This document shows positions 60,001-63,000 of a DNA stretch of 64,000 nucleotides, piece by piece. The DNA comes from Escherichia coli (GTDB lineage: Bacteria > Pseudomonadota > Gammaproteobacteria > Enterobacterales > Enterobacteriaceae), in the NCBI RefSeq assembly GCF_050920415.1, contig NZ_CP169309.1; one strand, 5' to 3'. Position numbers: made by a program. Within the stretch, counting starts at the first letter, position 1; each line of letters starts with the position of its first letter.

Positions 60001-63000
60001 CCAGGTAGCCAGCGTTTACGCCATCATGCCGGTAACCCGCTGCATCTTGATGTGCTGGTGGTGGATGAAGCGTCAATGATCGATCTCCCCATGATGTCGC
60101 GCCTGATCGATGCGTTGCCCGATCATGCCAGAGTGATCTTCCTCGGTGATCGCGATCAACTGGCCTCGGTTGAGGCTGGAGCTGTGCTGGGCGATATCTG
60201 CGCTTATGCCAACGCAGGCTTTACCGCCGAGCGTGCCGGGCAATTAAGTCGTCTGACGGGAAGTCATGTTCCGTCAGGAACTGGCACAGAAGCGGCATCT
60301 TTGCGCAACAGTCTCTGCCTGCTGCAAAAAAGCTATCGTTTCGGCAGCGATTCTGGCATTGGTCAGTTAGCTGCGGCGATCAACCGTGGTGATAAAACGG
60401 CAGTGAAAACCGTTTTTCAGCAGGATTTTACTGATATCGAAAAACGGCTTTTACAGAGCGGCGAAGACTATATTGCGATGCTTGAGGAGGCTCTTGCGGG
60501 TTACGGGCGTTATCTGGATCTGCTGCAAGCGCGTGCCGAGCCGGATTTAATCATTCAGGCGTTCAATGAGTACCAGCTTTTGTGCGCCCTGCGGGAAGGG
60601 CCGTTTGGCGTGGCTGGACTGAATGAGCGAATTGAGCAGTTTATGCAACAGAAGCGCAAAATTCATCGTCATCCGCACTCTCGTTGGTACGAAGGCCGAC
60701 CAGTGATGATTGCCCGTAATGACAGCGCGCTTGGGTTGTTTAATGGCGATATCGGTATTGCGCTGGATCGCGGGCAGGGGACGCGCGTCTGGTTTGCGAT
60801 GCCGGATGGCAATATTAAGTCTGTGCAACCGAGCCGCCTGCCAGAACACGAAACCACGTGGGCGATGACGGTACATAAATCGCAGGGATCGGAGTTTGAC
60901 CATGCGGCGTTGATTTTACCGAACCAACGCACGCCAGTTGTAACGCGAGAGCTGGTTTACACTGCGGTGACCCGCGCGCGTCGCCGTCTGTCGTTGTATG
61001 CCGATGAGCGCATATTAAGTGCGGCAATCGCCACTCGTACTGAGCGGCGCAGTGGTCTGGCGGCGTTGTTTAGTTCGCGGGAATAAACGTGATTGCCTGA
61101 TGCGACGCATGCGCGTCCTGTCATGCCTCCGGGCATTGCGCATATGCGCATCTGGCGATTTCCGTCGCTTACCCTAAATCCGCCATCAACACCTTTGATT
61201 TGATGTAGGTCGGATAAGGCGTTCACGCCGCATCCGACGATGAGCGTCAATACCTGATGCGATGCTAGCGTGTTTATCATGCCTCCAGGCATTGCGCATG
61301 TCGCATCTGGCGATTTCCACCACTTACCCCAAATCCGCCATCAACACTTTGGATTTACGCTGGTAGTTGTACAACTGCTTTTTGCTCTCGGGCAGTAAAT
61401 CAATATCCACCGGGGTAAATCCACGTTCCTGGAACCAGTGAATACTGCGCGTGGTCAGTACAAACAATTTGCTTAATCCGCTTTGCTTCGCCTGAGCGGC
61501 AATGCGCTCCAGCAAAACCTCGCCCCTTGATGAGCTGCGGTAATCCGGGTGAACGGCCACACAGGCCATTTCCCCAATCTTCTCTTCCGGGAACGGATAG
61601 AGTGCTGCGCAGGCAATAGTCGTGTTATCGCGCTGAATAATGGTGAATTTGTCGATTTCCATCTCCAGTTGCTCGCGAGAACGGCGTACCAGAATACCTT
61701 GCTGCTCCAGTGGGCGAATCAACTCCAGAATGCCGCCAATATCGTTGATTGTTGCGCGACGAATTTGCTCGGCGCTTTCCATCACAATCTGCGTACCGAT
61801 ACCGTCACGTGAGAACAACTCTTGCAACAGCGCGCCATCTTCCTGGTAACTAATTAAATGACAGCGACGTACGCCGCTGCGGCAGGCTTTCACCGCACCA
61901 CGCAAAAAGCGCACCGTACCGGAGTTGTAATCGCCTTTCTCTTCCTGAGCTTCTACCCGCGCTTGTGCTTCGTTAGGGAAAAGCTCGGAGACAATATCGC
62001 CGTCGTCATTAGTGACGCCCTGTGAAGAGCAAAAACCAATCATCTTTTCAGCTTTCAGTTTGATGGCCAGTTGAGTGGCGATCTCTTCCGAGGTCAGATT
62101 AAAGCTCTCGCCAGTGACTGAAACCGCGACCGGCCCCAGCAGCACTATCGCACCGCTGTCCAGTTGACGATGAATCGCATCTTCGTCAATCCGCCGGATA
62201 CGCCCGCTATGGCAGTAATCCACACCGTCATCCACGCCCAGCGGCTGGGCAATAATAAAATTGCCACTGACGACGTTGATATGCGCGCCCTGCAGCGGCG
62301 TGTTATTGAGACTCATCGACAGGCGAGCAGTAATGTCCAGTTGCAATGTTCCCGCAGCCTGCTTCACCAGTTCTAGTGTTTTGGCGTCGGTCACGCGTAT
62401 ATTTTTGTGATATAGCGGTTCGTGGTGATGCGCTGCCAGATTCGCATCGATCTGCGGGCGCGCTCCATAGACCACGACCAGACGGATGCCGAGGCTGTGC
62501 AGCAACCCGATATCATTAACGATACTGGAGAAATTCTCATGCTCAATGGCTTCACCGCCGAGCATGATGACAAACGTTTTTCCCCGGTGGGTATTGATAT
62601 AAGGAACCGAATGGCGGAATCCCTCGACCAACTCGGTTTTACGTTCCTTCACCACGGCACACCTCTTTGCATGATTATTCGTAATTATTGTATTTTTATT
62701 CTGTTTTTTCACTGGGTGCAAGTGCAAATTTTACGCATGAGCAACTTTTTTATCAGTAATGCCGTGAATATAAAAAGAATGTTTACCGTTTATTAGATGA
62801 CAGATTATGCGTCTTTCGCTAAAGTTTCCGGTCAAATTAGTCGTTTATTTGTTACACAGCTTAGATTTTTTTGCTCGGGAGATGCATGTCGGGATCCAAC
62901 ACAGCAATCAGCCGTCGTCGTTTACTGCAAGGCGCGGGTGCCATGTGGCTATTGAGCGTAAGTCAGGTCAGTCTGGCTGCGGTCAGCCAGGTCGTGGCGG

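What the first reader, a model, noticed from the sequence alone, without database searches (positions are those of the whole stretch)
61096..61358. Duplicated copy of the argA 3' end next to a REP element
A ~107 bp segment starting CCTGATGCGACGC at 61096 recurs about 156 bp later at 61252 with scattered substitutions. The downstream copy contains the last ~11 codons and the stop of argA on the minus strand, so the upstream copy is a vestigial duplicate of the gene terminus. A REP-type palindrome (61207-61239) lies between them, suggesting a REP-associated duplication.
Basis: seen in the sequence. Interest (0 to 1): 0.4.

Follow-up and report, generated by a model that had tools for sequence, protein, structure and literature searches.

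The report
Duplicated REP spacer with argA-tail relic
Between the convergent E. coli genes recD and argA, this strain carries a strain-variable 156-bp repeat of the REP-bearing spacer that dragged along a dead copy of the last ten codons of argA; it is a real but ordinary by-product of REP/BIME instability.

Summary
Window 61083-61201 recurs at 61240-61356: 114 nt aligned, 83% identity, two 1-nt indels, E=6e-28. It is the only local direct repeat of 40 nt or more in the 64 kb.

Copy B ends with the true argA terminus. Copy A ends with a relic (61169-61201, minus strand) that still reads [10 protein letters not shown]. The relic has no start codon and an in-frame stop 8 codons upstream.

Each copy begins with a degenerate y-type REP. 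The copies are joined by an intact canonical z2 REP (61205-61238) plus a 13-nt linker. The locus is therefore an atypical BIME with two units.

Most complete E. coli genomes have a 61-nt spacer, and others have an 81-nt spacer. 131 of 5,426 show two copies of the unit, in two diverged versions; in one version the relic is frameshifted.

Strain CS18F carries an exact A/B chimera. This shows the repeat collapsing by homologous crossover.

Outgroups have short spacers and no duplication.

The best reading is an old, neutral, REP-associated local duplication that spreads by recombination. How the REP came to sit at the joint is unresolved. This is a new instance of a known kind, of low interest.

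The parts
59260..61086 (+). recD (exonuclease V alpha), stop codon TAA at 61084-61086
   Evidence: ORF. Annotated as recD in all matching E. coli records.
61083..61201 (.). Copy A of the duplicated unit: recD stop region, spacer and vestigial argA tail
61094..61130 (+). Degenerate y-type REP of copy A (GCCTGATGCGACGC...GCGTC..TCATGCCTCC). It starts 7 nt after the recD stop.
   Evidence: Exact match to the REP head pattern at 61095. Weak Rfam naRNA4 hit over 61073-61127.
61141..61158 (-). Partial inverted REP head of copy A (GCCAGATGCGCATA on the minus strand). It is a remnant of the full z2 REP kept at this position in the outgroup L010.
   Evidence: Alignment with L010 and K-12
61169..61201 (-). 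Vestigial duplicate of the last 10 codons and stop of argA ([10 protein letters not shown]). It is not translatable: there is an in-frame stop 8 codons upstream and no start codon.
   Evidence: decayed by two frameshifts in the 602354 allele
61205..61238 (+). Intact canonical z2-type REP (GTAGGTCGGATAAGGCGTTCACGCCGCATCCGAC) at the joint between the copies
   Evidence: Inverted-repeat arms (I4). 34/34 identical to z2 REPs of BIME-2 arrays at mutT-yacG and another locus. Rfam naRNA4 hit over 61208-61283 scores 54.6 bits, below the gathering score of 59.5.
61239..61251 (.). 13-nt head-to-head linker GATGAGCGTCAAT. It resembles the recD stop plus ACGTGATTG found to the left of copy A, and it differs from the S linkers of the other BIME-2 arrays examined.
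   Evidence: (D3)
61240..61356 (.). Copy B of the duplicated unit, ending in the functional argA terminus
61252..61286 (+). Degenerate y-type REP of copy B
   Evidence: 61252, 2 mismatches
61297..61311 (-). Partial inverted REP head of copy B (GCCAGATGCGACAT)
61147..61163 (.). 17-nt tract CGCATCTGGCGATTTCC, identical to 61302-61318. This is the crossover interval used in the collapsed allele of strain CS18F.
61324..62655 (-). argA (N-acetylglutamate synthase), stop at 61324-61326

Best explanation
This is a strain-variable allele of the REP/BIME cluster that separates the convergent genes recD and argA. An ancestral spacer of about 82 nt held a degenerate y-type REP and a partial inverted REP head. 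That spacer was duplicated locally, together with the recD stop region on one side and the last 10 codons plus stop of argA on the other. The two ~119-nt copies are joined through one intact z2-type REP. The result is a two-unit atypical BIME with a 156-nt period, in which the promoter-less argA tail of the recD-proximal copy is a dead relic. SHOWN: the duplication; the locus-specific nature of the unit; the relic status of the tail; the REP identities; the polymorphism (spacers of 61, 81 and about 235 nt); the age of the allele (two versions 11-17% apart); its spread between backgrounds by recombination; and its collapse by crossover between the copies. INFERRED: the duplication and the REP at the joint arose in one REP/BIME-type rearrangement. 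Candidate routes are TnpA_REP (RAYT)-mediated unit amplification that sequesters flanking sequence, or replication template switching with a REP as templated filler. Also inferred is that the allele is selectively neutral, its only likely effect being extra REP hairpins in the 3' UTRs of both genes. The confidence given below is for the identity of the structure (a local, REP-joined duplication with a gene-tail relic). For the single-event, REP-driven origin specifically I put about 0.45.
For: Duplication: (E=6e-28). Locus-specific unit: the copy A query finds one place per genome, two in 131 genomes, always at recD-argA. Relic: it reads [10 protein letters not shown] but has an upstream in-frame stop, and it is frameshifted twice in the 602354-type allele. 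REP identities: head pattern matches at 61095(+), 61225(-), 61252(+) and 61298(-); the 34-mer is identical to z2 REPs of other BIME-2 arrays; sub-threshold naRNA4/REP325 hits. Polymorphism: 61-nt spacers in K-12 and O157, 81-nt in DA33135 and O4:H5, 237-nt in the window. The junction query is covered in 130 genomes and two copies are seen in 131 of 5,426. Two allele types share one architecture, and the four copies share GGGCATTGCGCAT against the single-copy alleles. Outgroups have short spacers and no tail duplication. Spread by recombination: the spacer is identical in the window and strain 104, yet 14 and 15 flank differences lie within about 400 nt on each side. Collapse: CS18F carries an exact A/B chimera with flanks identical to strain 104. 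[quoted passage not shown]
Against: A plain tandem duplication (P-U-U-Q) does not place extra sequence at the joint, so the z2 REP needs either a second event or a complex single event. Neither junction shows the C|T dinucleotide that TnpA_REP needs for cleavage: the junctions read TTT|GAT and GAC|GAT directly, although 10-17% divergence blurs the boundaries. The 3 nt left of the REP differ between the two allele types (GAT versus TCC), so an apparent GAT...GAT target repeat is not conserved. No allele with three units, with a duplication lacking the REP, or with the REP lacking the duplication was seen, so no intermediate fixes the order of events. Presence of a RAYT gene in the window genome could not be tested. 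Other Escherichia species were not sampled, apart from one mislabelled genome.
Confidence: 0.85

Rival explanations
1. Two independent events: first a simple ~120-bp tandem duplication by slippage or illegitimate recombination, then a later insertion of a single z2 REP exactly at the novel joint.
For: REPs do appear and disappear at intergenic sites between strains (PMC3333891). The z2 REP is 34/34 identical to the genomic consensus copy while the flanking copies are 11-17% diverged, which could mean the REP is younger or is refreshed.
Against: The REP would have to land exactly at the joint. Both diverged allele types already carry the REP at the same position with the identical right junction CCGACGATGAG, so it is at least as old as their split. 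No REP-less duplicated allele was found among the 131 genomes with two copies.
Confidence: 0.2
2. The structure was built by recombination between two already diverged alleles. One route is additive (Campbell-type or homology-facilitated illegitimate) integration of imported DNA that carried a REP next to the spacer. The copies would then have been different from the start.
For: Copies A and B differ by about 16-18%, far more than the flanking genes differ among E. coli strains. All 3 differences in the tail are synonymous, and copy A's CACCTTTGA state is the one seen in Salmonella and Citrobacter braakii. The locus clearly recombines.
Against: The four copies of the two duplicated alleles share derived or ancestral states (GGGCATTGCGCAT, CATCTGG in the window type) against all single-copy E. 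coli alleles. They are closer to each other than to any single-copy allele found, as expected for paralogues born in one lineage. No donor-type allele with the REP adjacent to a single unit was found. The only single-copy relative, CS18F, is an exact A/B chimera and therefore a derivative.
Confidence: 0.1
3. The two segments are members of a dispersed mobile repeat family (MITE or REPIN-like), and the match to the argA tail is incidental.
For: Each copy starts with a REP and REPs are dispersed. The Z-linker-Y part matches other BIMEs at about 82%.
Against: The 115-nt unit hits only the recD-argA locus in 5,425 genomes. The similarity is highest (30/33) in the part that is the coding end of argA.
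Confidence: 0.01
4. The extra unit is functional. It could be a selected 3'-UTR element (an mRNA stabiliser, a transcription insulator between convergent genes, or an sRNA) or encode a small protein.
For: The region folds more stably than shuffles (z=-5.0 on the plus strand, -2.7 on the minus strand). REPs are known from the literature to stabilise upstream mRNA (my own knowledge). The z2 REP plus 6 nt is invariant (40/40) between allele types that differ by 11-17% around it (P about 0.002-0.008).
Against: It is present in only about 2.4% of genomes. It is lost cleanly in CS18F. The relic and the y-REPs decay freely. No promoter-like or terminator-like sites were found. The ORFs across it are not conserved, since indels separate the allele types. 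The stable folding is what REP palindromes give by construction.
Confidence: 0.04

Closest known systems
BIME copy-number polymorphism in E. coli intergenic regions (BIME-2 and atypical BIMEs; Gilson/Bachellier classification; Ton-Hoang et al. 2012, PMC3333891)
   Same: It has alternating-orientation REPs of y and z2 type after the 3' ends of genes. The unit is repeated in tandem. The number of units differs between strains at the same locus. A z2 REP lies head-to-head with a y REP across a short linker.
   Different: The unit is 156 nt, whereas the two BIME-2 arrays examined repeat at about 80-100 nt. Its tail-to-tail 'linker' contains 33 nt of coding sequence from argA. The y REPs are degenerate. 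The head-to-head linker does not match the S linkers seen in the two other arrays examined. The copies are about 16-18% diverged, whereas tandem BIME copies at one locus are reported to be well conserved.
Sequestration of flanking genes or gene fragments inside BIME units (codA-cynR example and the TnpA_REP amplification model, PMC3333891 Fig. 7 and discussion)
   Same: A gene fragment adjacent to a BIME has become part of the repeated unit, as that model predicts.
   Different: No TnpA_REP involvement is shown here. The junctions do not show the required C|T. The model's simple version gives U-U without an extra REP at the joint.
REP sequences at the join point of tandem chromosomal duplications (Shyamala, Schneider and Ames 1990, Salmonella; cited from my own knowledge, not read here)
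   Same: A REP sits exactly at the novel joint of a direct duplication.
   Different: Those duplications are large (many kb) and arise by exchange between two pre-existing distant REPs. Here the unit is 119 nt, and no REPs exist at the outer boundaries, which lie inside the recD stop region and argA codon ~433.
naRNA4 / REP325 (Rfam RF02564)
   Same: 61208-61283 (z2 REP, linker and y REP) aligns over the full 77-position model (54.6 bits, E=1.6e-8).
   Different: The score is below the family's gathering threshold of 59.5. The hit only reflects the shared REP-pair architecture. This is a different locus, and no expression evidence exists.

Membership tests
REP / palindromic unit (z2 type) | An imperfect palindrome of about 34 nt preceded by a conserved GTAG | tested here: met
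   61205-61238 reads GTAGGTCGGATAAGGCGTTCACGCCGCATCCGAC, with arms 61209-22/61225-38 that are 86% complementary. It folds as a discrete hairpin on both strands.
REP / palindromic unit (z2 type) | The same sequence is present in many extragenic copies per genome | tested here: met
   The 34-mer is identical at the mutT-yacG BIME and another array. The 126-nt junction query finds a median of 9 places per E. coli genome.
BIME (bacterial interspersed mosaic element) | Two or more REPs in alternating orientation separated by short linkers, in an intergenic region | tested here: met
   REP heads lie at 61095(+), 61225(-), 61252(+) and 61298(-), plus a weaker one near 61145(-). All lie between the recD and argA stops.
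BIME-2 (canonical) | z2 and y REPs joined by the S linker, with s/l/r flanking motifs, in well-conserved tandem copies | tested here: not met
   z2 and y are present. However, the linker GATGAGCGTCAAT differs from the linkers of the two BIME-2 arrays examined (ATTTGCACAAGAT, AGTCGTT). The tail-to-tail interval is 73 nt and includes argA coding sequence. The copies are only 82-85% identical. It is best called an atypical BIME.
naRNA4 (Rfam RF02564) | Score at or above the curated gathering threshold | tested here: not met
   54.6 bits against a threshold of 59.5
Gene-fragment relic (pseudogene tail) of argA | Homology to the gene terminus, no means of expression, and free decay in related alleles | tested here: met
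   30/33 identity with the same peptide. There is an in-frame stop 8 codons upstream and no start codon. The 602354 allele carries two 1-nt deletions. The relic is deleted in CS18F.
Transposable element insertion with target-site duplication (IS / MITE) | A short fixed-length direct repeat of the target flanking an element that has terminal inverted repeats | tested here: not met
   The flanking direct repeat is about 119 nt. The apparent GAT...GAT at the REP edges is not conserved in the 602354 allele, which has TCC...GAT.
TnpA_REP (RAYT)-mediated BIME amplification | Joints formed at C|T cleavage sites (iREP or linker sites) near a GTAG-bearing REP, with a RAYT gene in the genome | tested here: inconclusive
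   A GTAG REP is present. No C|T lies exactly at either joint when the sequence is read directly, but the boundaries are blurred by divergence. RAYT presence is not testable from a 64-kb window. The cleavage rules are taken from PMC3333891.

The most novel reading that the evidence does not exclude
The allele may be a natural fossil of a single REP-driven rearrangement that copies about 120 nt of flanking DNA, including coding ends of both neighbouring genes, around a newly placed REP. That would be in-vivo evidence for how RAYT/TnpA_REP or REP-stalled replication builds and extends BIME arrays and captures gene fragments. The strictly invariant z2 REP amid fast-decaying flanks would then reflect ongoing homogenisation of, or selection on, active REPs.
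Probability: 0.25. Interest if true: 0.4.

Novelty: new member of a known kind. Interest (0 to 1): 0.15.

Why it matters
The practical value is mainly for annotation and for REP biology. The finding explains a 156-bp length polymorphism between recD and argA. It warns that the argA-like tail at 61169-61201 and the ORFs crossing the spacer are not genes. It also offers a compact natural series at one locus: single unit, then duplicated unit with a REP at the joint, then the collapsed chimera. That series could be used to test proposed mechanisms of BIME growth and loss. It changes nothing about recD or argA function as far as the evidence goes.

Tried and rejected
1. Dispersed-repeat explanation: rejected, because the unit hits only this locus.
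2. Target-site-duplication reading of GAT...GAT around the REP: rejected, because it is not conserved in the second allele type.
3. Reading the linker as a standard S motif imported together with the z2 REP: not supported, because the linkers in two other BIME-2 arrays are different.
4. Treating the relic's three synonymous-only differences as evidence of recent coding constraint: judged weak. There are only 3 sites, changes on the functional copy B are filtered by selection anyway, and the sister allele is frameshifted.
5. Rfam: only sub-threshold naRNA4/REP hits.
6. Promoter and terminator scan: nothing found.
7. Literature search for a description of this locus (argA + recD + REP): no paper found. 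A second search failed on syntax. A search for the REP/stop-codon translation effect found nothing usable.
It returned only one non-coli Escherichia-like genome (L010) plus other genera, so E. albertii, E. fergusonii and the cryptic clades were not examined.
9. Searches for intermediates gave no three-unit allele (at most 2 places per genome). No REP-less duplication appeared among the records inspected.

Full report
CONTEXT. The end of the window is the E. coli recB-recD / argA region. recD is at 59260-61086 on the plus strand. argA is on the minus strand with its stop at 61324-61326. The 551-nt query spanning the spacer (60950-61500) is 100% identical to several complete E. coli chromosomes, where the flanking genes are annotated recD and argA. 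The two genes converge, and the spacer here is 237 nt (61087-61323).

OBSERVATION. The repeat is real. The repeat finder reports in-register direct repeats with spacings of 157, 156 and 155 nt that together tile 61083-61201 against 61240-61356. MAFFT aligns the two segments with two 1-nt indels. blastn of copy A against the whole 64-kb window returns a single off-diagonal match, 61245-61356, with 114 columns, 83.3% identity and E=6e-28. Everything else has E of 0.07 or worse. No other local direct repeat of 40 nt or more exists in the window. Identity by segment is 29/37 in the REP part, 32/38 in the non-REP linker and 30/33 in the argA tail.

ANATOMY. On the plus strand each copy consists of four parts:
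- About 11 nt that include or resemble the recD stop and ACGTGATTG.
- A degenerate y-type REP (GCCTGATGCGACGC...).
- A partial inverted REP head (GCCAGATGCG on the minus strand).
- 12 nt followed by the last 10 codons and stop of argA.

REP-head pattern matches cluster at 61095(+), 61225(-), 61252(+) and 61298(-), and nowhere comparable elsewhere in the window.

Between the copies lie an intact REP, GTAGGTCGGATAAGGCGTTCACGCCGCATCCGAC (61205-61238; arms), and a 13-nt linker. This 34-mer is identical to the z2 REPs of canonical BIME-2 arrays at mutT-yacG and at another locus. The linkers in those arrays are different.

Rfam gives only sub-threshold hits to naRNA4/REP325, that is, to the REP-pair architecture (54.6 bits against a gathering score of 59.5). 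Both strands fold into the expected REP hairpins. No sigma-70-like promoter or intrinsic-terminator-like site is found.

THE RELIC. On the minus strand, 61169-61201 reads AAATCAAAGGTGTTGATGGCGGATTTAGGGTAA, which translates to [10 protein letters not shown]. This is the same peptide as the real terminus, with three synonymous differences. Upstream in frame there is a stop after 8 codons and no start codon. It is a promoter-less, start-less fragment.

IS IT A LOCAL DUPLICATION OR A REPEAT FAMILY? A 115-nt query of copy A finds one place per genome in 5,425 E. coli genomes, always at recD-argA, and two places in 131 genomes. The unit is therefore locus-specific. This is a local duplication.

POPULATION PICTURE. 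Three length classes of the spacer exist:
- 61 nt, in K-12, O157, B379, NGF1 and others.
- 81 nt, in DA33135, O4:H5 and strain 142.
- About 235 nt, the duplicated form.

The 61-nt form is the 81-nt form minus 20 nt. The A-REP-B junction is covered in 130 genomes. Copy B's spacer part is found in 131 genomes.

The duplicated form comes in two versions. The window type (237 nt) is in about 97 genomes. The 602354 type (234 nt) is in 33 genomes. Both have the same architecture and the same right junction.

The units differ by 11.5% (A versus A') and 17% (B versus B') between the two types. In the 602354 type the relic has two 1-nt deletions, which shows that it decays freely.

The z2 REP plus the next 6 nt (40 nt in all) is invariant between the two types. 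The chance of that at the surrounding divergence is about 0.002-0.008. This fits the well-known conservation of active REPs.

All four copies share GGGCATTGCGCAT where the single-copy E. coli alleles have GA(A/G)TGTT.(T/C)GCAT. The outgroup L010 has GGGACATT. The duplicated alleles therefore form their own old lineage.

SPREAD AND LOSS. The window and strain 104 have identical spacers. Yet they differ at 14 and 15 sites within about 400 nt of recD and argA on either side, and the window lineage carries many private SNPs. The allele has therefore moved between backgrounds by homologous recombination.

Strain CS18F has flanks identical to strain 104 (0/450 differences on each side) and carries a single 82-nt spacer. 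That spacer is exactly copy A on the left and copy B on the right. The switch lies within the 17-nt identical tract 61147-61163 / 61302-61318. This is a collapse of the duplication by crossover between the copies. It is independent proof that the copies behave as paralogous repeats. No genome shows three units.

OUTGROUPS. Across 78 Enterobacteriaceae loci the argA/recD convergent arrangement is kept and the estimated spacer is usually 10-60 nt. Citrobacter has one REP there, and Salmonella arizonae has two REP-like palindromes. The genome L010 is about 9% diverged and is mislabelled as E. coli. It has a 95-nt spacer with a degenerate y REP and a full z2 REP at the position where E. coli alleles keep only a head remnant. 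None of the spacers printed (L010, Citrobacter, S. arizonae and the longer ones) shows a duplicated argA tail.

MECHANISM. What is shown is a ~119-nt direct duplication that spans from the recD stop to argA codon ~433, with a canonical REP precisely at the joint. A plain tandem duplication does not explain the REP.

I favour a single REP/BIME-type event, at about 0.45. Two routes are possible. One is TnpA_REP-mediated unit amplification, which by the authors' own model can sequester flanking gene fragments and whose products vary in copy number between strains (PMC3333891). The other is replication template switching with a REP as templated filler.

Against the RAYT route, neither joint shows the obligatory C|T. 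The apparent GAT...GAT around the REP is also not conserved in the second allele type.

The alternatives are two separate events (about 0.2) and assembly from two diverged alleles by additive recombination (about 0.1). The high A-B divergence and the Salmonella-like state of copy A's tail give the latter some support. The clustering of all four copies against every single-copy allele argues against it.

A functional reading is unlikely (about 0.04). The allele is rare, it decays, and it is cleanly lost.

COMPARISON AND VERDICT. The structure works like, and qualifies as, an atypical BIME with strain-variable unit number. It fails the canonical BIME-2 definition on linker, unit composition and copy conservation. 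It also fails the Rfam naRNA4 threshold.

I found no description of this particular allele. It is nonetheless an instance of a known phenomenon, so I classify it as a new member of a known kind, of low interest. The added value here has four parts:
- the REP content of the copies themselves;
- the population frequency (about 2.4%);
- the two ancient versions;
- the CS18F collapse.

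Noticed in passing
L100 (E. coli CS18F, NZ_CP074576.1 610813-610894); corresponds to window 61087-61163 joined to 61319-61323: The single-copy 82-nt spacer is an exact chimera of copy A and copy B, in a background identical to the duplication carrier strain 104. It is a natural collapse of the repeat by crossover in a 17-nt identical tract.
   Followed up: yes
window 60700-60994 and 61459-61770: The window lineage carries many private substitutions in the 3' part of recD and in argA. It is 4-5% diverged from K-12, strain 104 and DA33135 over about 7 kb, which is high for within E. coli, yet the spacer is identical to that of strain 104.
   Followed up: partly
L010 (NZ_JAATUR010000008.1, labelled E. 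coli SCPM-O-B-8794): It is about 9% diverged from the window across recD and argA, so it is probably another Escherichia species. Its 95-nt spacer keeps a full z2 REP where E. coli single-copy alleles keep only the REP head.
   Followed up: partly
L096 (K-12 MC1000) versus L097 (2014C-3051), mutT-yacG region: The BIME-2 array downstream of mutT differs between strains. In 2014C-3051, mutT is annotated as running into the z2 REP, and the sequence beyond the y REP is unrelated to that of K-12.
   Followed up: no
L090 versus L091/L092, downstream of amiC: K-12 has three tRNA-Met genes after amiC, whereas strains 104 and DA33135 have a PRD-domain protein gene and a PTS EIIC gene at that position. 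The window ends before this point.
   Followed up: no
window 61084-61106 and 61299-61326: REP-type hairpins begin 7 nt after the recD stop and about 12 nt after the argA stop. From my own knowledge, REPs within about 15 nt of a stop codon have been reported to interfere with translation termination. This was not examined here.
   Followed up: no
window 60957-61292 (-), 61186-61323 (-), 61270-61398 (+): Mechanical ORFs of 42-111 aa cross the repeat. Two of them start inside copy B sequence that single-copy alleles lack, and all three cross positions where the two allele types differ by 1-nt indels. They are very unlikely to be genes.
   Followed up: partly
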